Shown here piece by piece: positions 3 to 62,822 of a stretch of 64,000 nucleotides of DNA. Every line of letters starts with the position of its first letter. Positions within the stretch are counted from its first letter, which is position 1. Under the pieces are notes generated by a model. The model had not been told where the DNA came from, did not search any database, and saw only the letters and a list, made by a program, of their open reading frames with translations. The DNA is from Vicinamibacterales bacterium (GTDB lineage Bacteria > Acidobacteriota > Vicinamibacteria > Vicinamibacterales > UBA2999). The position numbers and the translations under genes are program-made. The stretch is taken from contig JBOGIW010000612.1 of assembly GCA_050748045.1 (NCBI GenBank), forward strand, positions 14,573-78,572, in the 5' to 3' direction.

Positions 3-305
3 TTCGTCGCGCTGCCGGGCGGACTGGGAACGCTCGACGAGCTCTTCGAGATTCTGACGCTCATCCAGACCGAAAGGATCGCGCGTCTTCCCGTCGTCCT
101 GCTCGGCACCGAGTACTGGAGCCCACTGCTGACCGTTCTTCGCGGCATGGCGGCGGCAGGCACGCTCGACCGGTCCGATCTGGATCACATGTATCTCACC
201 GATGATGTGGCGGCCGCCGTCGGGCACATCGTGACCGGCACGGCCTCGCGCACCGTGCCCGCAGGACGCGTCTCACCATGGGCCGATCCGTCCATCGCGA
301 CGTAA
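3..305 (+). CDS. LOG-family (TIGR00730-like, 'lysine decarboxylase-like') protein, C-terminal fragment; the 5' end lies outside the window
   Basis: Frame-3 translation from base 3 reads [40 protein letters not shown]. This is the PGGxGTxxE region typical of LOG/YvdD proteins. The frame stays open to TAA at 303-305. Confidence 0.75.
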
Positions 306-1531
306 CCCTGGCCTCGACGATGGCGATGGGCGTCCTCGATCGCTGGGAGCACACCGACCTCGCGCAAACGATCTTCACGCGCTCCGTCGAGTGTTGGGGT
401 GAGGACCGGGCGGTCGTCCTGCTGGGTCGATCGCCGGCGATCGTCGGGGCGCAGCAGCGGCTCATGCAGTGCACGCATACCGACGGCGCCGCGCTCATCA
501 CCGGGGAGACGGGGTCGGGCAAGGAACTGTTTGCGCGCGGTCTATACCTGATGTCGCGCCGGTATGGGCGCCCGTTCGTGTCGATCAATTGCGCTCAGTA
601 CCTCGACAGCCAACTGCTGGCGAGCGAGCTGTTCGGGCACACGAAAGGAAGCTTCACCGGCGCGATTGCCGATCGCCGCAGCATGTTCGAAGAGGCGCAG
701 AGCGGCGTCATCTTCCTCGACGAGGTCGCCGAGCTCTCGCTCGCCGCCCAGGCGATGCTCCTGCGGGTCCTCGGCGAAGGCGAAATCGTGCGCGTGGGAG
801 AAAACCGCCCGCGGCGCGTCGACGTGCGCACGGTCGCCGCAACGGCCGTCGATCTGGAGCAGGCCGCCGCCCGCCGGGGCTTTCGCGAAGATCTGTTCTA
901 CCGCCTGCGCGGCGTACGACTCAGGATTCCGCCCCTGCGCGAGCGCGACGACGACTGGAGGGTGATCGCCGATTACGCGCTCCACGCGCTGAACACGCGC
1001 TACTCGGTGGTCAAGCGTTTCTCGGCTGCGTCGCTGCGGATTCTCGAGGGCTACTCGTGGCCGGGGAACATTCGAGAGCTCAAGAGCATCGTCGAGCAGG
1101 GGTTCTACATGAGCCGCGGCCAGCTCATCGAGCCGGCCGACTTCGCCGCCGATCTCAATCTCGACGCTTCCGGCGACACCGCTGGCGCCTCGACGAGCGC
1201 CGACGTCCGGCACGACGAGGGTGGCGACGTTACGCCGACCCAGGCGGAGCATCTCTACGCGCGAATTCGACGATGGGGCCTGACGTTCTGGGATGCCGTG
1301 CACCGGCCGTACCTGAACCGCGAGCTCAATCGCCGGGAAGTACAGGCCATCCTGGCCGCTGGTCTTCGCGAAACGCAGGGCAGCTACAAGCGACTCCTGC
1401 CGCTCATCGGGCTCGACGCGACGGAGTACGTGCGGTTCATGGATTTCCTGCGGCATCACGCGCTCAAACCGCCGCGCCGGGACGTTGCGTCCGGATCGCC
1501 CGATTGCATGCTGACGGAACGACGCCCGTGA
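278..1531 (+). CDS. Sigma-54-dependent transcriptional activator (AAA+ bEBP) with almost no N-terminal sensor domain
   Basis: Walker [31 protein letters not shown] (ESELFGH/GAFTGA motifs), Walker [29 protein letters not shown]-terminal helix-turn-helix-like tail. Only ~50 aa precede the AAA+ core. An alternative start is ATG 320, since the 278 start overlaps the upstream gene. Confidence 0.85.
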
Positions 1532-11812: not shown

Positions 11813-11998
11813 ATGTCCGAGCCTCTTGCCCCCGGCCTCCGGTCGACGACGCCGCGCGTCGACTCGACGACGGCTGATCCGCAGGCGTTGGCGCCGCTCG
11901 CGGCGCGCGACCCGTCCGCCGACGACGGCGAGCTCACCGAAGCCGACCTCGCACGCGTGGTCGGCGGGCTCGATTGGTCGCAGATGCTCCTGCCGTAA
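11813..11998 (+). CDS. Candidate RiPP/bacteriocin precursor peptide: 52-aa leader ending in a double-glycine motif plus a 9-aa core
   Basis: MSEPLAPGLRSTTPRVDSTTADPQALAPLAARDPSADDGELTEADLARVVGG|LDWSQMLLP. The leader end ELTEADLARVVGG resembles the (E)LS/TxxxLxxVxGG cleavage region of Nif11/NHLP and class II bacteriocin leaders. Third-codon positions are strongly G/C, as in the neighbouring genes. AGGAG lies 9 nt upstream. An in-frame ATG at 11804 is an alternative start. Confidence 0.65.
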   Translation: MSEPLAPGLRSTTPRVDSTTADPQALAPLAARDPSADDGELTEADLARVVGGLDWSQMLLP

Positions 11999-12017
11999 GG
12001 CTTAATCCGTTTTTCGT

Positions 12018-12044
12018 CCCCGCGGCCTATGGAACGCCGCGGGG
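12018..12044 (+). promoter_or_regulatory. Perfect 9-bp GC stem-loop 20 nt downstream of the precursor gene (possible attenuator or mRNA-stabilising element; no U-tract)
   Basis: CCCCGCGGC-ctatggaac-GCCGCGGGG read directly from the sequence. It lies in the longest intergenic gap (145 nt) of the left half of the cluster. Confidence 0.45.
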
Positions 12045-12142
12045 CGCGGCGATACAGTAGCGGCCACATCGACCTTCCCTGGACCGCCCCCCACGGTGTC
12101 CATGGCGGAAGCCCGCCCATCGCATCACCCCAGGAGGAGACC

Positions 12143-12382
12143 ATGAGCATCTTCGACAATGAGGAAGACACGACCATCTACAACGTCGTCGTCAACCACG
12201 AGGAGCAGTACTCGATCTGGCCGGCACATCTTCCCGACGTTCTCGGCTGGCGCAAGGTCGGCGTCTCCGGCATCAAGCGCGAGTGCCTCGAGTACATCGA
12301 GCGGGTGTGGACCGACATGCGGCCGCTGAGCCTGCGGCGAAAGATGGAGCAGGACGCGCAGGCCGTGGCGGCGTCACGGTGA
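12143..12382 (+). CDS. MbtH-like protein
   Basis: [45 protein letters not shown], the canonical MbtH signature. GGAGGAG upstream of ATG 12143. Confidence 0.95.
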
Positions 12383-26599: not shown

Positions 26600-28591
26600 A
26601 TGAACACCTTTCGAGTGACGCTGATCAACATGCCTTTCGGCGATCTGCAGATGCCTTCGCTCGGCCTGATGCAGCTCAAGGCGAGGCTCGAGTCGGTCTT
26701 CAAAGACCGTGTCAGCTGCCGGATTCTGTATCTGAGCAACGACTACGCGCGTTACCTCGGCCTGGACGTCTACACGCGGATCGTCGCCTCGACCGAGCTG
26801 CAGGTCACCGGTCTCGGCGACTGGTTCTTCCGCCAGCTCGCCTTCCCCGAGGAACCGGACAACGAGCGCGGGTACTTCCGCAGATACTTCAACGCGAAAG
26901 ACGACGCAACCGTGCGGCTCCGCGAGCGGCTGCGCGATCGGCGGCCCGGCCTCGAAGCGTTCACGGAGCGTCTCATCGACGCCTGTGACCTGCGCTCGGC
27001 CGACCTGGTCGGCCTCACGTCGATGTTCTCGCAGAATGTCGCCTGCTTCGCCATGGCGCGTCTGCTCAAGCGGTCGCAGCCCGCACCGCTCGTCGTGATG
27101 GGCGGCGCGAATTGCGAGGCGCCGATGGGAAAAGTCATCGCCGATCACGTCGAGTGGCTGGACGCCGTCTTCTCGGGACCGGCCTTGCACAGCTTCCCCG
27201 AGTACGTCGAGGCGTGCATGGATGGCCGGCCCGAGCGGATTCAGTCGATCGAAGGCGTCTTCACGCGACAGGGTCGCCAGCTGCTGGCCAGGAATGGCCT
27301 GCTCACAATGGCGCAGCCGGCCGTGCCGCCGTTCGGCAAGGAGCTCGACATCAACACCACCATCGAGCCCGACTACGACGAGTTCCTGGATCAGTTCTCC
27401 ACCCACTTTCGCGGCGAGGCGATGAAGCCGACCCTGACCTTCGAAACGTCGCGCGGGTGCTGGTGGGGCGCGAAGGCGCACTGCACGTTCTGCGGGCTGA
27501 ACGGGTCGAACATGACCTACCGGGCGCTCGACTCGCGCAAGGCGGTGGAGCAGTTCCAGCGTCTCTTCACCTACGCCGATCGCAGCTCGTTCTTCTTCTC
27601 GGTGGACAACATCCTGCCGACGAATTACCCGACCGAGGTGCTGCCGCTCCTCGACGCACCTCCGAACGTCAAGATCTTCTACGAGGTGAAGGCGGACCTC
27701 AGCGACAAGACGCTCGCCTCGCTGGCGCGCGCCGGCGTCCGGATCGTGCAGCCGGGAATCGAAGCGCTTTCGACCTCCACGCTGAAGCTGATGAGAAAGG
27801 GCACGAGCGCCTTCAGCAACATCGCGTTCCTGAAGGGGTGTCTGCAACACGACATCAAGCCGCTCTGGAACCTGCTCATCGGCTTTCCAGGCGAGCAGGC
27901 CGCCGTCTACGAGAAGTACCAGCGCGACATCCCGCTGCTTGCGCACCTGCCGCCGCCGAGCGGCGTGTTCCCGATTCGCTTCGATCGATACAGCCCGTAC
28001 TTCACCAAGGCCGCCGAGTACGAGCTGTCGCTCGAGCCAATGGAGTTCTACCGGCTCGTGTACCCCTTCCCGCAGGCCGCGATCGCCGATCTCGCCTACT
28101 ACTTCGTCGACGTGAACCCGAACGCGTCGTACATGCTCAACATGGCTGAATGGCACGGACCGCTGAACCATGCCGTCGACCGCTGGAAGCGTCGATGGCT
28201 CGACGGCGACTGCGGAGCCGTCCGCCCCGTCCTGCACGTCACGAACGGCTCCGAGGGGGTCGTGGTCCACGATTCACGCTTCGACCGCGAAGCGGCCTAC
28301 CGGCTGACGACGGAACAGGCGAGGTGCCTGCATCGGCTGGCGCTGCCGGCGCGCAGCGCCGACCTCGCCCAGCTCTCGAGAGAAATCCCAACCATCGTCG
28401 TCGAGCGCGAGCTCGCGTTTCTGCGCGACAGACGCCTCGTATTCGAGGAGGGCGACCGCCTGGTCGGCCTCGTCAGCAACGCCGAGCTGGCAGCGCCAGC
28501 CCTTCAGGATCTCGTTTCGCGCGCTCCCGAGCCTCTGGAGGTAGCGGCCGCGGAAGCAGACGTTCACATAGCCTCGTTCGCCTGCTCGTAA
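26600..28591 (+). CDS. B12-binding radical SAM enzyme of the 'RiPP maturation radical SAM protein 1 / C-methyltransferase' type (TIGR03975-like; PoyB/PoyC family)
   Basis: N-terminus MNTFRVTLINMPFGDLQMPSLGLMQLKARL. Extended cluster motif FETSRGCWWGAKAHCTFCGLNG (Cx8CxxC, characteristic of this family). VQPGIEALS, LWNLLIGFPGE. Confidence 0.8.
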   Translation: MNTFRVTLINMPFGDLQMPSLGLMQLKARLESVFKDRVSCRILYLSNDYARYLGLDVYTRIVASTELQVTGLGDWFFRQLAFPEEPDNERGYFRRYFNAKDDATVRLRERLRDRRPGLEAFTERLIDACDLRSADLVGLTSMFSQNVACFAMARLLKRSQPAPLVVMGGANCEAPMGKVIADHVEWLDAVFSGPALHSFPEYVEACMDGRPERIQSIEGVFTRQGRQLLARNGLLTMAQPAVPPFGKELDINTTIEPDYDEFLDQFSTHFRGEAMKPTLTFETSRGCWWGAKAHCTFCGLNGSNMTYRALDSRKAVEQFQRLFTYADRSSFFFSVDNILPTNYPTEVLPLLDAPPNVKIFYEVKADLSDKTLASLARAGVRIVQPGIEALSTSTLKLMRKGTSAFSNIAFLKGCLQHDIKPLWNLLIGFPGEQAAVYEKYQRDIPLLAHLPPPSGVFPIRFDRYSPYFTKAAEYELSLEPMEFYRLVYPFPQAAIADLAYYFVDVNPNASYMLNMAEWHGPLNHAVDRWKRRWLDGDCGAVRPVLHVTNGSEGVVVHDSRFDREAAYRLTTEQARCLHRLALPARSADLAQLSREIPTIVVERELAFLRDRRLVFEEGDRLVGLVSNAELAAPALQDLVSRAPEPLEVAAAEADVHIASFACS

Positions 28592-33975: not shown

Positions 33976-35322
33976 ATGCCCCGACGCATGCCCGGCCGAT
34001 GGCTGCTCGGTCCCGTCCTGATCGCGCTGCTCGTGGTCGGGCCTGCCGCCCGGCGTGGGCGCCCGCTGACGATTACCCACGCCACGGTCGTCGACATGGT
34101 GACCGGACGCACGACCCCCGACAGCACAGTGGTGGTACGAGACGGGGTCATCGTGTCGGTGGGGACGCGCACGGCGCCGCCGGCGGGCGCGCACGTCGTC
34201 GACGCCGCGGGCGGCTTTCTGATTCCAGGCCTCTGGGACATGCACGCGCATCACGAGGCCACTGGTGAGACCTCCCTCGGCCTGTACGTCGCCAACGGCG
34301 TCACCGGTACGCGCGACATGGGATCGGATCTCGATGCGGTGCTTCGGCTGCGGGCGATGACCGCGGCCGGTACCCTCCTTGGTCCGCGCATCGTCGCCGC
34401 CGGGCCGATTCTCGACGATGCGCCGGACGACTGGCCGTATCGGCTGCGGGTGCGCACGGCCGACGAAGCGCGGCGCGCCGTTCGCATGCTGAAGACGCGA
34501 GGCGTCGATTTCGTCAAAGTGCACGACCGTACGCCGCGCGAGGCATATCTCGCAATCGTCGAGGAGGCCAGCCAGCACAGCCTGCCCGTGGTCGGGCACG
34601 TGCCGCGCGGGATTACGCTCGAGGACGCCGTGCAGGCAGGGCAACGCAGCATCGAGCACCTCGCGGGGTTCCGCGTCGTGCGCCAATGTTCGGGCGGCGA
34701 GACGTATCGTCGAGAGGCGTGCGCGCCGTTCTTCGCGTGGCTCGCCACACGCGCGGTCTGGCAGACGCCGACGTTGGCATCGTGGCGCAGCCTGATGACC
34801 ATCGGCACCGCACAATCGGATGCGGAGAAAGACCACGTCGAGTACGCCAGCCCTTCACTGCGGGAAGGATGGGCGCTGAATCAGCGCGTGTCCAACTCCA
34901 GCGCCGAACAAGCGCGCCAGCTCGTGGCATCCTCCGACAATGCCGCGATTGCAGTGAGCGATATGCAGAGGGCGGGTGTCGGCATTCTTGCCGGCTGCGA
35001 CGGGCTCGTTCCGGGCTTCTGCGTTCACGACGAGCTCGAGGTGATGGTTCGGGGCGGCATGTCACCGCTCGCGGCGCTGCAGACCGCGACGATCAACCCG
35101 GCGCGGTTTCTCGCTCTCGAGCGGACGCTGGGCGCGGTAGCGGAGGGCAAGGCCGCCGACCTCCTCTTGCTGCAGGCGAACCCGCTCGAGGACATCGCCA
35201 ACGTCAGGAAGATCGAGGGCGTTGTCGTGGCTGGGCGCTGGCTCGATCGGCAGCAACTCGACGCCCTGCTCGCCGACATCAAGCGCCGGTTCAACCCGGC
35301 ATCGCTCGCGCCCGCGAACTAG
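33976..35322 (+). CDS. Metal-dependent amidohydrolase-family protein with an N-terminal signal/anchor
   Basis: MPRRMPGRWLLGPVLIALLVVGPAA, then ITHATVVDM.., FLIPGLWDMHAHH (HxH metal site), DFVKVHD, GILAGCDG, HDELE. TTG 33967 (TTGA overlap with the previous stop) is an alternative start. Confidence 0.8.
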   Translation: MPRRMPGRWLLGPVLIALLVVGPAARRGRPLTITHATVVDMVTGRTTPDSTVVVRDGVIVSVGTRTAPPAGAHVVDAAGGFLIPGLWDMHAHHEATGETSLGLYVANGVTGTRDMGSDLDAVLRLRAMTAAGTLLGPRIVAAGPILDDAPDDWPYRLRVRTADEARRAVRMLKTRGVDFVKVHDRTPREAYLAIVEEASQHSLPVVGHVPRGITLEDAVQAGQRSIEHLAGFRVVRQCSGGETYRREACAPFFAWLATRAVWQTPTLASWRSLMTIGTAQSDAEKDHVEYASPSLREGWALNQRVSNSSAEQARQLVASSDNAAIAVSDMQRAGVGILAGCDGLVPGFCVHDELEVMVRGGMSPLAALQTATINPARFLALERTLGAVAEGKAADLLLLQANPLEDIANVRKIEGVVVAGRWLDRQQLDALLADIKRRFNPASLAPAN

Positions 35323-35459
35323 ATCTCCTTTCGTCCGGACAGCCGATGGCGGCCTGGCCCGCAACCGGCTACGCTTCTCGACCACGGCGGATTCTTCCGC
35401 CGGGCCTTCCTCGAGCTTCCGACATGTCTGGCGGAAGCCCGTTCATCGAAGGTGAGCCG

Positions 35460-35765
35460 ATGCTTGATTGGGAAATGCTGATGCTGCTCGATGAGCGGGA
35501 GGACGAAGACGAGGCGACGCGATACGAACGCCGCGCGTTCCGGCAGGAGCTGCAGTGGAGCGTGTCGCCGCTCGTTTTCGCGGCCATCCTTCTCGCCCAC
35601 GGCGGCGCCGCGCTTGCCCGCCTGCTCTCGTCGCGAGCGCGGCGCGTGTGGACGGCCGTCCGAGGATCCGCGCGTCGGCGCTCCTTCGCCGCCGACACGA
35701 GCCCGTCACGAGAGCCGCTCGCACACGTCCACGCCGATGTGAGCTCCCCGATCGGCCGGCTCTGA
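35460..35765 (+). CDS. Small hypothetical protein (101 aa): acidic N-terminus, central hydrophobic segment, Arg-rich C-terminus; candidate scaffold or accessory peptide of the LanB-like enzyme
   Basis: MLDWEMLMLLDEREDEDEATRYERRAFRQELQWSVSPLVFAAILLAHGGAALARLL SSRARRVW... Third-codon positions are strongly G/C, as in real genes here. AAGGTGAG lies 5 nt upstream. The ORF ends 30 nt before the LanB-like gene. In-frame ATG 35424 is an alternative start. Confidence 0.45.
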   Translation: MLDWEMLMLLDEREDEDEATRYERRAFRQELQWSVSPLVFAAILLAHGGAALARLLSSRARRVWTAVRGSARRRSFAADTSPSREPLAHVHADVSSPIGRL

Positions 35766-35794: not shown

Positions 35795-38359
35795 ATGGCT
35801 GTTGATCGCGCAGCGTTCGTCGCCGATGCGCCACTCGACGCGGCACGCGAGCGGACCACCTCCGCGCCGCTGCACGTGTGGGAACACGAACGGCCGCTGC
35901 CGGGCGGCGACTGGGTCATCTGGCGTCCGACGGTCCTTCGCGGCACCGGCTTCCCGGTGTCGACCATGGCCGGTCTGGCGGGGATGCAAGCGCCATCGGC
36001 CGCGGACGAGTACTCCGACACTCGGGCCGACGTGATCCGTTTGCGCCGGCTCGCACTTGCGCAGATCGGCCAGGATCTGCGGGCGTGTCCTCCGAGCGCC
36101 CGCGCCGCGCTCCGTGCCAGGCGGCGTCGTATTCGTCAGGGGAGAATCGCGCGCGACGCCACGACTCACATCGAACGGGCGCTGGCATCCGCGACGGAGG
36201 CGCGCGTCGCGGCGCACGCTCGGTTGATGGAGGTGTACCGGGCGGAGACGCAGCTCATCGACGCGCGTCTTGCCGGGATCCTGGCCGACCCCCGCTTTCG
36301 CGAAGCAGTGCGGTGGCAAAATCCGCGCGCGCTCTCGCTGATCGATCGCAGGTTTCAAGCGCCGGCAGGCGCACGCGCCGACCGTCGCGCCGCAGGCGAT
36401 CTCGTCGCGATGCTCATTCAGCGCTACGCGCTCAAGAACGACAGCATCGGGTTCTTTGGACCGGTGGGGTGGGGCTCCCTTTCCGAGCAGGAGATGACGG
36501 TCGACATCTCGCCGGGTGCCGGCTTGCTCGCCCGCCGCGCGGTGTACTTCGAAGGGTGGTGCATCGACGCGCTCGCCGACGCGCTCGACGCGCATCCATC
36601 GGTCAGGTGCTGGACCGCGCCCCGTCTCGCCGGCGGCGTCTGGCAGGGAGAGAACGGCGTCGTGCACGTGCCTCTGGTTGGGCAGGTGGCCGTATCGGAA
36701 GGCGAGCGCCGTGTCCTGGCGTTGTGCGACGGGGAGCGCTCCGCGCGGGAGATCGCCGACGTCGTGCTCCGCCACCCTGAATCGGATCTGCGTTCCGAGG
36801 ACGACGTGTTTGCCGCGCTTCGTGCTCTCGTCGACAGACGGGTGCTCGTCTGGAGACTGGACGTCGCTCCTCAACTTCATCCCGACCACGAGCTCCGCAG
36901 GCGTCTCCATCGCATCGGCGATCCCCGGTTGCGCCAGGAGTGCTTCGCCGCGCTCGACGCGCTGGTCGAAGCGCGCGACGCGGTTGCGCGCGCCTCAGGC
37001 GATCCCGACGCACTCGACGAGAGGCTCACCGCGCTGAACACGACGTTTACGGGTCTCACAGGTCGCGCGCCGACGCGCCGCGTCGGACAGATGTATGCCG
37101 GCCGCACGCTGGTATACGAAGACTGCCGCCGTGCCGGCCGGGTCACCCTCGGCGCTGCATTCCTCGCGCGGCTCGGTCCGCCTCTCACGCTTGTCCTCGA
37201 GAGCGCCCGATGGGTGGCGGCGGAGCTCGCACGTGGATTCCGGGTGCAGATGCGGCAGTGTTATGCCGCGCTCGCGCGTGAACGGCGGGATGCGGTCGAC
37301 GCGCACGAGTTCTATACACGAGTCACGCAGATCCCGCTCGACGAACGGATGGCGCGCATTCGCGACGTGGAACGGCGATTCCGTGAGCGGTGGCAGTTCG
37401 CGCTCGGCGTGGACGGAGAGCCGCGCCGAGTGAGCCGATCGGTGGACCAGATCGCGCTCCGCGCCCGCGAGGCCTTCCTCTCGCGCTCGCCGCTATGGAG
37501 CAGGGTGAGGTTCCTCAGTCCGGACGTGCTGGTGGCCGCCGATGGCCCGGAAGCATTCCGCCGTGGCGACTTTCACTGCGTGCTCGGCGAGATCCACAGC
37601 GGCAACGGACTCCTCTGGTCCGCGCTGGCTTCGCAGCATCCCGATCCGCAGGAGCTCGCGGACGCGGTCGAGCGCGATGCGCGCGACGTCACGCCTATCG
37701 TGACCCAGGTCCTCAAGAGCGACTGGTCGGCCCGGCTGAACGTCGCGGCGCGTCCCCCGTGCGGCTGGCGGTACGAGTTTCACGACGATCGACCGAGCCA
37801 GCCCGGTTGCCGACCGATGCCGGCGGCAATGCTCGTTCCATCGGATGACGGCCTCACGGTGACGATGCGGACGCGCGACGGCAACCACGAGTTCGACGCG
37901 ATCGAGTTGTTCGGTCTGCCGCTGTGCTGGGAGGTGGACAGCGTCCTCAAGCAATACCTCCCGGACGCACCTCACGTGCCCCGCGTGACGATCGGCGCCT
38001 TGACTATCGCGCGCGAGCGTTGGTGCGCCACCCGCGACGAGCTGCCGTTCGTCACCGAGCCCGACCGTGCGGCGCGCTTCGCTGCGCTGCGCGCGTGGGC
38101 GCGCGGCCTCGGGCTCCCGCGACGCGTGTTCTACAAGTTCCCGCGCGAGCGCAAGCCGTGTTATCTGGACTTCGACAGCCCGCTGTACAGCGATCTCTTC
38201 CTGAAAGGCGTGCGCAGCCTCGAAGAGGGCATCGCGGTTCGCCTCGACGAGATGTTCCCGGGAATCGCCGAGACATGGCTCGCAGACGGCACCGGCGACC
38301 GGTACACCAGCGAGTTCCGGTTCGCCACTCGACTGGCGAGTCCCGGGTGCCTGGCATGA
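35795..38359 (+). CDS. Small LanB-like protein: lantibiotic-dehydratase N-terminal (glutamylation / aminoacyl-tRNA-using) domain only, no elimination domain (PEARL-like)
   Basis: 854 aa. WVIWRPTVLRGTGFP, ADPRFREAVRWQNPRAL and QRYALKNDSIGFFGPVGWG resemble the conserved 'dp.f.eAl..aSp.L' and '..Y..R...R.TPFGLFAG' blocks of LanB N-terminal domains. The length fits the ~800-aa N-domain. No SpaB_C-like C-terminal region follows. ATGA overlap with the next gene. Confidence 0.6.
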   Translation: MAVDRAAFVADAPLDAARERTTSAPLHVWEHERPLPGGDWVIWRPTVLRGTGFPVSTMAGLAGMQAPSAADEYSDTRADVIRLRRLALAQIGQDLRACPPSARAALRARRRRIRQGRIARDATTHIERALASATEARVAAHARLMEVYRAETQLIDARLAGILADPRFREAVRWQNPRALSLIDRRFQAPAGARADRRAAGDLVAMLIQRYALKNDSIGFFGPVGWGSLSEQEMTVDISPGAGLLARRAVYFEGWCIDALADALDAHPSVRCWTAPRLAGGVWQGENGVVHVPLVGQVAVSEGERRVLALCDGERSAREIADVVLRHPESDLRSEDDVFAALRALVDRRVLVWRLDVAPQLHPDHELRRRLHRIGDPRLRQECFAALDALVEARDAVARASGDPDALDERLTALNTTFTGLTGRAPTRRVGQMYAGRTLVYEDCRRAGRVTLGAAFLARLGPPLTLVLESARWVAAELARGFRVQMRQCYAALARERRDAVDAHEFYTRVTQIPLDERMARIRDVERRFRERWQFALGVDGEPRRVSRSVDQIALRAREAFLSRSPLWSRVRFLSPDVLVAADGPEAFRRGDFHCVLGEIHSGNGLLWSALASQHPDPQELADAVERDARDVTPIVTQVLKSDWSARLNVAARPPCGWRYEFHDDRPSQPGCRPMPAAMLVPSDDGLTVTMRTRDGNHEFDAIELFGLPLCWEVDSVLKQYLPDAPHVPRVTIGALTIARERWCATRDELPFVTEPDRAARFAALRAWARGLGLPRRVFYKFPRERKPCYLDFDSPLYSDLFLKGVRSLEEGIAVRLDEMFPGIAETWLADGTGDRYTSEFRFATRLASPGCLA

Positions 38360-62083: not shown

Positions 62084-62822
62084 GAGCTTACCTCCAGAGA
62101 CTGCTCGGCTTCCGATCGACAGCGGCAAACGGCCTCTTGAACCACCTCACGAGCAACTGACCCAACGCTTCGTGAATTGGTGTCCTCGTTCCGGGAATTG
62201 CCGGCGCTCGGTGAATAGACCGGTCTGCGACGAGGCCAAGACCGCCATTCACGCCCAGTGCCTCGCGGTCGCGAACTGCGGTGGCGGAACGCATAGGGCC
62301 ATCTATCAAGTCGCACATCGTCCGCGGGACACGGCGAAATCAACGGCGATGCGGTTCGGGTGAGAGCAGGCAACACATCAGGCAGCGGGAATGACACGCT
62401 TCCGCCGTTGGTGGCCCGAATGGCCGATGTGGTGAGGACACCAATATTCGCAGACGCGCCCAGAGACTGCCGCCGGTCTGCAGCGCCGCGTCTAAGCTAT
62501 CCCCTTCGCGCGAACCGGGCAATCAACCATTGGAGCGGTTGATGGTGTAGTTCCAGAGCTCGTGACCGCCTCCCAGCGTTTCAGCAGCGACCGAGAGCAA
62601 TGATGAAGATCCGATGCCTCAATGACTTACGGCGCCGAAGCGACCTCACATCGATCAGAGTCGACTTCGTGGCAACCGCATCTGTCGAAGGGATTAGCAG
62701 ATCATTGACATTGGGACCTGGCACGGTCCCGATCTTTCCCGTGCTGATTTCATCGCAACCGCCGGCTCCACGAACGCTGATCGCACAGCATCGACATCCA
62801 CAAGTCGTCCATGAGCACTCGT

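What the first reader, a model, noticed from the sequence alone, without database searches (positions are those of the whole stretch)
35424..35765. Unannotatable small ORF upstream of the LanB-like gene shares an LDW..ML.L motif with the precursor core
The ORF has gene-like G/C third-position bias and an SD-like AAGGTGAG. It ends 30 nt before the LanB-like start, the position where PEARL and LanB substrates are usually encoded.

Its first residues, MLDWEMLMLL, resemble the 9-mer core LDWSQMLLP of the GG peptide: LDW is identical and MLL is identical after a one-residue gap, with Trp being a rare residue. The remainder is an acidic stretch, a hydrophobic segment containing its own GG (LLAHGGAALARLL) and an Arg-rich tail.

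It could be a second, leaderless or inverted-topology substrate, an immunity or decoy protein that mimics the core, or a small membrane regulator. The motif match could also be chance.
Basis: seen in the sequence. Interest (0 to 1): 0.6.

Follow-up and report, generated by a model that had tools for sequence, protein, structure and literature searches.

The report
Conserved small helical protein before PEARL-like gene
The small ORF is a real, conserved gene for a roughly 100-residue helical, probably membrane-anchored protein that travels with a LanB/PEARL-like enzyme gene in a few acidobacterial NRPS-PKS clusters, but it does not look like a peptide substrate and its "LDW" resemblance to the GG peptide is most likely coincidence.

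Summary
The ORF is real. Its composition is coding-like (GC1/2/3 = .75/.53/.82). Against a 62%-identical syntenic homologue, codons 1-33 are 91% identical with saturated synonymous change (pS .62, pN .04).

The true start is ATG 35460 (MLDWE..., 101 aa). It is not 35424, which both the finding and NCBI use.

It belongs to a very rare family with no Pfam, NCBIfam or PDB match: 7 clusters among 5.8 billion proteins. Every context long enough to read that shows cluster genes is an NRPS/PKS cluster. In three sequence lineages the gene sits directly upstream of the same LanB_N-only (PEARL-like) cassette, even though the upstream gene differs.

The layout is an acidic amphipathic N-terminal helix, an SxSP kink, a hydrophobic helix, an Arg-rich flank and an unconstrained tail (pN≈pS).

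The substrate reading fails. The C-terminus is not conserved, there is a TM-like helix, and the internal GG is not conserved.

The LDW..MLL match exists, but shuffled cores match something in the window's proteome equally well 16% of the time. Across the family only x-D-W-E is conserved.

Function is unproven. My best guess is a membrane-tethered accessory or docking protein.

Separately, a ~130-nt leader carrying an ops-like 12-mer (GGCGGAAGCCYG) occurs twice in the window.

The parts
35460..35765 (+). Small ORF coding sequence (101 aa plus stop); the corrected start is ATG 35460.
   Evidence: Coding-like GC frame pattern. The 1-nt indel and ATG->GTG upstream in L001 exclude the 35424 start. 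Homologues P0002-P0007 all start at the equivalent Met. Differences by codon position over codons 1-33 are [3,0,12].
35449..35456 (+). Shine-Dalgarno-like AAGGTGAG.
   Evidence: Read from the sequence. AGGTGAG is conserved in L001, and purine-rich equivalents occur in L015 and L017.
35460..35558 (+). Codons 1-33: the acidic amphipathic N-terminal helix (MLDWEMLMLLDEREDEDEATRYERRAFRQELQW). This is the most constrained part of the protein.
   Evidence: 91% identity to P0002 with pS .62 and pN .04. AF2 predicts a helix over residues 3-34. The family motifs are M-x-D-W-E and ERRxFRxELxW.
35559..35630 (+). Codons 34-57: the SxSP kink plus a hydrophobic, TM-like helix (SVSPLVFAAILLAHGGAALARLL).
   Evidence: The best 19-residue Kyte-Doolittle mean is 1.93; it is 1.7-1.9 in 6 of 7 members and 1.35 in P0005. 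The Hessa sum is +1.4 to +3.9 kcal/mol. AF2 gives its highest pLDDT over residues 41-60. JGI names P0002 'uncharacterized membrane protein'.
35631..35762 (+). Arg-rich flank followed by a variable, disordered C-terminal tail.
   Evidence: Over codons 69-99, pN .51 ≈ pS .52 and identity is 29%. Tail length and sequence differ in every homologue. pLDDT is below 50.
35326..35459 (+). Conserved non-coding leader upstream of the small ORF. It contains CTAGATC/TTTCGTCC (35319-35336), a TAnnnT box (TACGCT, about 35372-35377) and the ops-like 12-mer GGCGGAAGCCCG (35430-35441).
   Evidence: The blocks are conserved in L001 and in the divergent L018, where the upstream gene is unrelated. A second copy lies in the window at 12012-12142. 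The 12-mer occurs only in these leaders among 270 kb searched.
35795..38359 (+). LanB_N-only (PEARL-like) gene immediately downstream. It is the first gene of a conserved cassette: LanB-like, A-PCP, a 293-aa weakly GNAT-like protein, KS-AT, and GATase/PRT.
   Evidence: Pfam PF04738 only, with no PF14028 hit among the ORFs scanned. The same cassette order is found in the P0003 contig.
11813..11998 (+). GG-leader peptide (61 aa, ...ELTEADLARVVGG|LDWSQMLLP), the peptide the motif was compared with.
   Evidence: It is annotated by NCBI as a hypothetical protein, and members of its 90% cluster have cores LDWSQMLLP or LDWSQMFLP.
12012..12142 (+). Second copy of the leader element (TTTCGTCC 12012-12019; GGCGGAAGCCCG 12104-12115). 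It lies between the GG-peptide gene and the real MbtH start, ATG 12143.

Best explanation
window:35460-35765 is a genuine, translated gene. It encodes a 101-residue all-helical accessory protein of a hybrid NRPS-PKS/RiPP gene cluster in a Vicinamibacterales (Acidobacteriota) MAG.

Shown:
- It is protein-coding and under purifying selection.
- It belongs to a tiny unannotated family.
- It is inherited together with the LanB_N-only (PEARL-like)/A-PCP/GNAT-like/KS-AT cassette, as that cassette's first cistron, even when the upstream gene differs.
- Only its first ~65 residues are constrained. These are the acidic amphipathic helix beginning M-x-D-W-E, the ERRxFRxELxW juxta-helix motif, the SxSP kink and the hydrophobic helix.

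Inferred:
- The hydrophobic helix anchors the protein in or on the cytoplasmic membrane.
- The highly conserved N-terminal helix is a docking surface for a partner. The most economical candidate is a cytoplasmic enzyme of the downstream cassette, such as the PEARL-like enzyme, which would place late steps next to the exporters.
- It is not a RiPP precursor or a PEARL carrier peptide.
- Its LDW..MLL resemblance to the GG-peptide core is coincidental.
For: Coding:
- GC1/2/3 = .75/.53/.82.
- Window against L001, codons 1-33: 91% identity, pS .62, pN .04. Whole-gene omega is .29, against .15-.23 for the flanking enzymes.
- Substitutions by codon position are [3,0,12].

Family:
- P0002 at E = 7e-27.
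- Five more members found by profile search of 1.84 billion representatives.
- No further members in 5.8 billion proteins.
- No Pfam, NCBIfam or PDB match.

Linkage:
- Amidohydrolase -> small ORF -> LanB-like in the window and in L001/L002.
- rSAM -> small ORF -> LanB_N -> A-PCP -> 300 aa -> KS-AT -> GATase in the P0003 contig and L016.
- The 4-gene difference upstream therefore leaves the pair intact.

Anatomy:
- AF2 predicts helices 3-34 and 37-77, with pLDDT highest over residues 41-60 and a disordered tail.
- The 19-residue Kyte-Doolittle mean is 1.7-1.9 in 6 of 7 members, and both flanks are basic.

Against a substrate role:
- The tail has pN≈pS, and family lengths range from 87 to 115 aa.
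- BhaB(C)Trp needs only the C-terminal 12-mer of its substrate (PMC11962472).
- NRPS-associated PEARL-like enzymes act on non-ribosomal carboxylates, and no carrier peptide is found in such clusters (PMC11212132).

Motif: the family-wise p is about 0.16.
Against: - No experiment or structural complex supports any partner; the docking role is inference only.
- Topology is ambiguous. Both flanks of the hydrophobic helix carry 4-6 Arg, and the Hessa ΔG is marginal at +1.4 to +3.9 kcal/mol. The helix might instead be buried in a protein complex.
- Twelve LanB-like loci at 34-39% identity have no homologue or positional analogue, so the protein is not generally required by this enzyme type.
- In L018 the family member is followed by a NusG paralogue, not a LanB-like gene. 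In L017 and L019 it lies next to a transposase-like ORF (judged by eye, not tested) or an unrelated gene.
- Pairwise, the motif match is unusual (p = 0.0035-0.02) and falls in the most conserved residues, so a functional resemblance is not excluded.
Confidence: 0.4

Rival explanations
1. Regulatory small protein. It would be the first cistron behind a conserved leader, and would act as a membrane-anchored signal transducer or anti-activator. It might control cluster transcription through the sensor-less sigma-54 activator at 278-1531, or through a NusG-type antiterminator.
For: - It always follows a conserved ~130-nt leader that is also used in front of the MbtH-TE-NRPS operon.
- In L018 the next gene is a NusG paralogue.
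- The cluster's sigma-54 activator has its AAA+ domain from residue 49, so it has no obvious sensor domain.
- A conserved N-terminal helix, a membrane anchor and a variable tail form a common layout for small regulators; this point rests on general knowledge.
Against: - The window contains no NusG paralogue.
- No sigma-54 promoter consensus lies near the leader.
- The leader is not specific to this gene.
- There is no homology to any known regulator.
Confidence: 0.2
2. Immunity or decoy protein. The N-terminus (M)LDWEMLMLL would be a tethered mimic of the exported core LDWSQMLLP. It would compete for an enzyme, receptor or target that recognises the LDW N-terminus.
For: - The pairwise match is p = 0.0035-0.02 and is the best match to the core in the whole window: score 29, against 27 for the next best.
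- The match lies at the extreme N-terminus of both peptides and within the most constrained residues, with D-W-E conserved in 5 of 7 members.
- A periplasmic-binding-protein gene and a C39 exporter lie next to the GG peptide.
Against: - The family-wise p is 0.16.
- 'L' and 'MLL' are not conserved in the family.
- The two genes are 23.5 kb apart.
- Met1 is unlikely to be removed before Leu (general knowledge), so the free N-termini would differ.
- Co-variation could not be tested, because no GG-peptide orthologue from a divergent cluster was obtained. My database query for it was in the wrong frame.
Confidence: 0.1
3. A second ribosomal substrate. It would be either a carrier peptide for the PEARL-like enzyme or an inverted-topology precursor with an N-terminal core and a C-terminal follower.
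For: - It is encoded 29 nt upstream of the LanB-like gene.
- In the P0003 cluster it lies between a TIGR03975-type RiPP rSAM and the LanB-like gene.
- The N-terminus is highly conserved and is followed by an acidic stretch.
Against: - The C-terminus is unconstrained and variable in length.
- The protein has 101 residues and a TM-like helix.
- It has no Cys and no conserved Ser/Thr core.
- No elimination domain or LanC was found among the ORFs scanned.
- Conservation runs continuously through residue ~65 rather than as a short core.
- The GG peptide already fits the RiPP enzymes.
Confidence: 0.05
4. A spurious ORF in a high-GC intergenic region, or an N-terminal extension of the LanB-like gene.
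For: High-GC genomes produce many long open frames. The LanB frame is open from 35495.
Against: - Third-position-biased substitutions and a pN/pS of .04/.62 occur in this frame.
- The ORF is conserved in distant metagenomes.
- The LanB-like start aligns at 35795 in L001.
Confidence: 0.03

Closest known systems
PEARL carrier (scaffold) peptides such as TglA, AmmA and BhaA
   Same: A small gene encoded next to a LanB_N-only (PEARL-type) gene.
   Different: Those peptides are soluble, and BhaB(C)Trp recognises the C-terminal 12-mer of its substrate (PMC11962472). This protein has an unconstrained C-terminus and a TM-like helix, and it shows no detectable similarity to any annotated family.
NRPS/PKS clusters with a PEARL-like 'lantibiotic dehydratase' (SnaE of the sna cluster, PMC11212132)
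   Same: A LanB_N-only enzyme is embedded among NRPS and KS-AT genes, and no elimination domain is present in the neighbourhood.
   Different: The window has no ureido-type C domain signature EHHxxHDG. It does carry a GG-leader peptide, a C39 exporter and a RiPP-type rSAM. The small ORF has no counterpart described for sna.
Pf3-coat-like and other small bitopic membrane proteins (acidic N-tail, one TM helix, basic C-flank)
   Same: The overall charge and hydrophobicity layout, and one long helix predicted across the hydrophobic stretch.
   Different: There is no sequence relationship. The N-flank here is also Arg-rich, so the N-out topology is not secure. The resemblance is from general knowledge, not from a test.
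RfaH ops element GGCGGTAGCGTG (this applies to the leader, not the protein)
   Same: The leader 12-mer GGCGGAAGCC(C/T)G matches ops at 10 of 12 positions in L001 and L018 and at 9 of 12 in the window; counting the variable nn pair as free, the departures are 1 and 2. It keeps C3, G5 and G8, and also G at -10 and Y-G at -1/+1. It lies between a possible promoter and the first gene. One family member is followed by a NusG paralogue (PMC5995543).
   Different: The key flipped base T6 is A. No NusG paralogue is present in the window. Nothing has been tested functionally.

Membership tests
Protein-coding gene under purifying selection | Frame-specific codon bias, and synonymous change far exceeding non-synonymous change against homologues. 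| tested here: met
   GC3 is .82. Over codons 1-33, pS is .62 and pN .04; overall omega is .29. Differences by codon position are [3,0,12].
PEARL carrier peptide | Encoded adjacent to the PEARL gene. | tested here: met
   A 29-nt gap separates it from the LanB_N-only gene. The adjacency is conserved in L001, L002, L016 and the P0003 contig.
PEARL carrier peptide | A conserved C-terminal region that the enzyme recognises and extends (a 12-mer suffices for BhaB(C)Trp, PMC11962472). | tested here: not met
   The C-terminal ~30 residues are 29% identical with pN .51 ≈ pS .52. The termini differ in all 7 members and lengths range from 87 to 115 aa.
PEARL carrier peptide | A short soluble peptide (TglA is a 50-residue scaffold, per the PMC9016710 abstract). 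| tested here: not met
   The protein has 101 aa and a hydrophobic helix with a 19-residue Kyte-Doolittle mean of 1.93. JGI labels the homologue a membrane protein.
PEARL carrier peptide | C-terminal aminoacyl-tRNA-dependent extension. | not testable with these tools
   This needs in vitro or heterologous co-expression with mass spectrometry.
Class I lanthipeptide precursor (LanA) | A Ser/Thr/Cys-rich conserved core, with a LanB elimination domain and a LanC cyclase in the cluster. | tested here: not met
   The protein has no Cys and its tail is not conserved. Pfam scans of the window's main ORFs found only PF04738, with no PF14028 or LanC.
Double-glycine (GG) leader peptide | A conserved GG/GA/GS cleavage motif preceded by the leader consensus. 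| tested here: not met
   The internal HGG at residues 47-49 is replaced by HAS, GSA, IAA, YGV or HAV in the homologues.
Small bitopic membrane protein | A hydrophobic helix of about 19 or more residues above the TM threshold. | tested here: met
   The 19-residue Kyte-Doolittle mean is 1.7-1.9 in 6 of 7 members, against a usual threshold of about 1.6. AF2 predicts a continuous helix with its highest confidence there. The Hessa sum is marginal at +1.4 to +3.9 kcal/mol.
Small bitopic membrane protein | A charge asymmetry that defines topology (positive-inside rule). | tested here: inconclusive
   Taken whole, the N-side is net -4 to -6 and the C-side is +3 to +5. The 15 residues before the helix also hold 4-6 Arg.
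Shared motif with the GG-peptide core (functional mimicry) | A similarity beyond chance that is conserved in homologues. | tested here: inconclusive
   Pairwise p is 0.0035-0.02 and family-wise p is 0.156. Only x-D-W-E is conserved. Co-variation with cognate cores could not be tested.
RfaH-type ops element (leader) | GGCGGTAGnnTG on the non-template strand of a transcribed leader, together with a cognate NusG paralogue. | tested here: inconclusive
   GGCGGAAGCCYG is present in 4 independent leaders. T6 is A. A NusG paralogue is adjacent only in L018 and is absent from the window. Transcription was not tested.

The most novel reading that the evidence does not exclude
The extreme N-terminus of this membrane-tethered protein, (M)LDWE-hydrophobic, may be a built-in mimic of the free N-terminus of the exported and processed GG peptide (LDWSQMLLP). 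It could act as a pseudo-ligand or pseudo-substrate. That would give the producer immunity, or gate an enzyme or receptor that reads the LDW N-terminus, such as the GNAT-like protein of the downstream cassette or the periplasmic binding protein next to the GG-peptide gene. This would be a genetically encoded tethered decoy of a RiPP core inside a hybrid RiPP-NRPS-PKS cluster.
Probability: 0.08. Interest if true: 0.7.

Novelty: new member of a known kind. Interest (0 to 1): 0.3.

Why it matters
Small proteins encoded in biosynthetic gene clusters are routinely ignored or mis-started by annotation pipelines. This one is a clean example of a rare but strongly constrained small gene that co-inherits with a PEARL-like enzyme cassette in uncultured Acidobacteria.

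Three consequences follow:
- It is not a precursor or carrier peptide, which prevents a wrong product prediction for this cluster. The GG peptide remains the only ribosomal substrate candidate.
- Its 33-residue N-terminal helix is more conserved than the neighbouring enzymes, so it is a specific handle for interaction studies.
- The incidental leader element with an ops-like 12-mer may be of wider interest. It suggests NusG-paralogue-type antitermination of a ~46-kb NRPS-PKS operon in Acidobacteria.

Tried and rejected
1. Wrong-frame error. I first took the GG peptide as 11814-11998, but the correct start is 11813. The Pfam scan of it and my last homologous-protein search therefore used a wrong-frame translation. 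Their 'no hit' results are void. Only the exact-sequence cluster look-up is valid; it shows three >90%-identical members with cores LDWSQMLLP or LDWSQMFLP. The co-variation test could not be done for this reason.
2. Synteny search with the LanB-like protein in genome contigs found 12 loci at 34-39% identity. None has a homologue or positional analogue of the small ORF, and none has a GG-type peptide by regex.
3. A metagenome scan with the family alignment recovered only the already known L015 contig. The first attempt failed because the alignment lacked conserved columns.
4. Rfam, the sigma-70/terminator scan and the sigma-54 consensus gave nothing at the locus.
5. RNA folding of the four leader copies gave z-scores of -0.04 to -1.8, and RNAalifold gave only 13 weak pairs. 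A structured RNA element is not supported.
6. PDB sequence searches with the small family and with the LanB-like protein found nothing useful.
7. No ureido-type C domain (EHHxxHDG) is present in the window, so the SnaE-type substrate logic cannot simply be transferred.
8. The protein downstream of the small ORF in L018 has no Pfam hit and no relative in the window.
9. A fold search of the AF2 model was not run. Two helices at pLDDT 69 would match anything.

Full report
**Context**

The window has 67.6% G+C. An exact protein match places it in a Vicinamibacterales (Acidobacteriota) MAG contig of 78.7 kb.

Pfam and NCBIfam scans show one long, almost entirely plus-strand biosynthetic cluster. 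In order, it contains:
- a sigma-54 activator, an OEP, a C39-peptidase ABC exporter, a second ABC transporter, a periplasmic binding protein and TauD;
- a 61-aa GG-leader peptide (11813-11998, ...ELTEADLARVVGG|LDWSQMLLP);
- MbtH, a type II thioesterase and two NRPSs;
- a TIGR03975 'RiPP maturation radical SAM C-methyltransferase' (504 bits, cut-off 282);
- an HPPD-like dioxygenase, an A-MT-PCP protein, an aminotransferase and an amidohydrolase;
- the small ORF;
- a LanB_N-only protein (PF04738 with no PF14028 hit among the ORFs scanned, so PEARL-like by the neighbourhood criterion of PMC11212132);
- A-PCP, a 293-aa weakly GNAT-like protein, KS-AT, GATase/PRT and an FmdA-like protein;
- three more NRPSs.

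Most of it is.
- The frame is open to TGA 35763-35765, 29 nt before the LanB-like ATG at 35795.
- GC1/2/3 of 35460-35762 is .75/.53/.82, indistinguishable from the flanking genes.
- AAGGTGAG lies at 35449-35456.

The start needs correcting. A 62%-identical homologue (P0002, E = 7e-27) lies in a syntenic JGI contig, L001. Its gene order is HPPD-like, A-MT-PCP, aminotransferase, amidohydrolase, small ORF, LanB-like. In the DNA alignment the upstream ATG at 35424 is GTG in L001, and a 1-nt indel breaks that frame before the second ATG. The gene therefore starts at 35460 with MLDWE.... The 113-aa NCBI model and the finding's start coordinate are 36 nt too long.

**Is it a gene?**

Yes.
- Window against L001, Nei-Gojobori method:
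  - Codons 1-33 are 91% identical, with pS .62 and pN .04.
  - Codons 34-68 are 60% identical, with pN .24.
  - Codons 69-99 are 29% identical, with pN .51 ≈ pS .52.
  - The flanking enzymes have pS of about .61-.62 and omega of .15-.23.
- Differences in codons 1-33 fall [3,0,12] by codon position.
- The N-terminal 33 residues are more conserved than the neighbouring enzymes, which are 63-70% identical.

**The family**

A profile search of 1.84 billion representative proteins found five further members (P0003-P0007, E = 1.5e-17 to 1.6e-4). A profile search of 5.8 billion proteins added none. No Pfam, NCBIfam or PDB family matches.

The alignment shows these features:
- M-[LIVS]-[DEH]-[WF]-[ED]-hydrophobic at the extreme N-terminus, followed by an acidic stretch;
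- (T/Q)R(F/Y)ERRxFRxELxW;
- SxSPLxFAAxLL;
- a hydrophobic stretch that is not conserved in detail;
- an Arg-rich flank;
- an unrelated tail of variable length (87-115 aa in total).

AF2 on this alignment predicts two helices, 3-34 and 37-77, broken at SxSP. Confidence is highest over residues 41-60 and the tail is disordered. The best 19-residue Kyte-Doolittle mean is 1.7-1.9 in 6 of 7 members, and the Hessa sum is a marginal +1.4 to +3.9 kcal/mol. Both flanks are Arg-rich, so topology cannot be called.

**Genomic association**

- P0003 lies in a 73-kb contig ordered NRPS, NRPS, rSAM, small ORF, LanB_N, A-PCP, 300 aa, KS-AT, GATase/PRT. L016 confirms rSAM, small ORF, LanB-like.
- That rSAM is 68% identical to the window's. 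It is therefore the same cluster type without the four genes that separate the rSAM from the small ORF in the window.
- The small ORF stays with the LanB-like cassette across this rearrangement.
- In L018 a divergent member is followed by a NusG paralogue.
- In L017 and L019 members lie next to a PCP end plus an ORF I read by eye as transposase-like (not tested), or next to an unrelated convergent gene.
- Twelve LanB-like loci at 34-39% identity (Holophagales, Blastocatellia, Ktedonobacteria, Herpetosiphonaceae and others) have neither a homologue nor a positional analogue.
- The protein is therefore an accessory of one cluster lineage, not a general partner of NRPS-associated LanB-like enzymes.

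**The motif**

LDW is shared, and the best local alignment is ungapped (LDWSQMLL/LDWEMLML, BLOSUM62 score 29).
- Shuffling the ORF gives p = 0.0035, and shuffling the core gives p = 0.02.
- No other protein in the window reaches 29; the next best is 27.
- However, 15.6% of shuffled cores reach at least 29 somewhere in the 27-protein, 19.8-kaa window proteome.
- Across the family the 'L' is L/I/V/S and 'MLL' is not kept. Only D-W-E is conserved.
- The internal GG is not conserved.

I could not test co-variation with cognate GG-peptide cores. My only remaining database search used a wrong-frame query, and the valid exact look-up returned only >90%-identical copies. Chance is the best reading, at roughly 3:1, but functional mimicry is not excluded.

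**What it is not**

A PEARL carrier peptide should present a recognisable, conserved C-terminal region. BhaB(C)Trp needs only the C-terminal 12-mer of its substrate (PMC11962472). Here the C-terminus is the one part that evolves neutrally. The protein is also long and hydrophobic.

A LanA-type precursor is excluded. There is no Cys, no conserved core, and no elimination domain or LanC among the ORFs scanned.

The GG peptive with its typical double-glycine leader, the C39 exporter and the TIGR03975 rSAM already form a coherent RiPP substrate-and-enzyme set. NRPS-associated PEARL-like enzymes can also act on non-ribosomal carboxylates (PMC11212132), although the window lacks the ureido C-domain signature.

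**Most likely mechanism (inferred)**

I read it as a small membrane-tethered accessory protein whose N-terminal helix docks a partner. The partner is probably a component of the downstream cassette. Regulatory and immunity roles are the main rivals. No tool available here could discriminate between them.

**Incidental finding**

The ~130 nt upstream of the small ORF is conserved in L001 and, notably, in the divergent L018, where the upstream gene is unrelated.

A second copy lies in the window between the GG-peptide gene and the true MbtH start at 12143. Shared blocks are TTTCGTCC, a TAnnnT box and GGCGGAAGCC(C/T)G. That 12-mer occurs only in these leaders among 270 kb of window plus loci.

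It resembles the RfaH ops element GGCGGTAGCGTG (PMC5995543):
- C3, G5 and G8 are kept, as are G at -10 and Y-G at -1/+1.
- T6 is replaced by A.

Together with the NusG paralogue in L018, this suggests NusG-paralogue antitermination sites at 12.1 kb and 35.4 kb of a ~46-kb operon. This is a lead only. The RNA folds are not significant, no sigma-54 or sigma-70 consensus was found, and the window has no NusG paralogue.

**Verdict**

This is a real, rare, strongly constrained small gene of unknown function. It was correctly spotted, but with a mis-set start and an over-read motif. It is not a substrate. Interest for the ORF itself is modest.

Noticed in passing
window 35326-35459 and window 12012-12142; L001 7569-7704; L018 402-547: A ~130-nt non-coding leader is repeated in the window. 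One copy precedes the small ORF and one precedes the MbtH-TE-NRPS operon. It is conserved in other metagenomes regardless of the upstream gene. Its 12-mer GGCGGAAGCC(C/T)G (35430-35441 and 12104-12115) resembles the RfaH ops element GGCGGTAGCGTG, with T6 replaced by A. This may be a NusG-paralogue recruitment or pause site.
   Followed up: partly
L018 548-1502: A divergent member of the small-protein family (P0005) is followed directly by a NusG-family paralogue (PF02357, E = 1.7e-16) and then by an unannotatable gene. The upstream gene is unrelated to biosynthesis.
   Followed up: partly
window 35424-35459: NCBI's gene model (ACRD26_23190, 113 aa) and the finding start at ATG 35424. Comparative data (ATG->GTG and a 1-nt indel in L001) put the start at 35460.
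   Followed up: yes
window 26600-28591: A TIGR03975 'RiPP maturation radical SAM C-methyltransferase' (504 bits against a cut-off of 282) sits between NRPS genes. Together with the GG-leader peptide, the C39 exporter, TauD and the LanB_N-only gene, it suggests a genuine RiPP/NRPS/PKS hybrid cluster.
   Followed up: partly
window 12019-12045: A perfect 9-bp G+C hairpin (CCCCGCGGC ... GCCGCGGGG) lies just after the GG-peptide stop codon. It is preceded rather than followed by a T-run, and it sits inside the first leader copy.
   Followed up: no
window 12029-12382 (MbtH-like gene): The longest ORF (117 aa) over-extends the MbtH gene. A strong SD (AGGAGGAG) and ATG 12143 give a typical 79-aa MbtH, and the extension overlaps the conserved leader.
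   Followed up: partly
L004 52-3597: In a Thermoanaerobaculia MAG, a condensation-domain segment (HHxxxDG motif) and the LanB-like domain lie in one continuous 1181-aa ORF. This suggests a natural C-domain/PEARL-like fusion.
   Followed up: no
L013, minus strand near 1973: Only this Herpetosiphonaceae LanB-like locus carries the ureido-type C-domain signature EHHLLHDG described for SnaA-type NRPSs. The window and the other loci do not.
   Followed up: no
window 62395-62406, minus strand: GGCGGAAGCGTG differs from E. coli ops at a single position (T6->A). It lies in a poorly coding stretch between the ABC ATPase gene and the MacB/FtsX-like gene on the minus strand.
   Followed up: no
window 278-1531: The sigma-54 enhancer-binding protein has its AAA+ domain starting at about residue 49, so it has no recognisable N-terminal sensor domain. 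No sigma-54 promoter consensus was found near either leader.
   Followed up: partly
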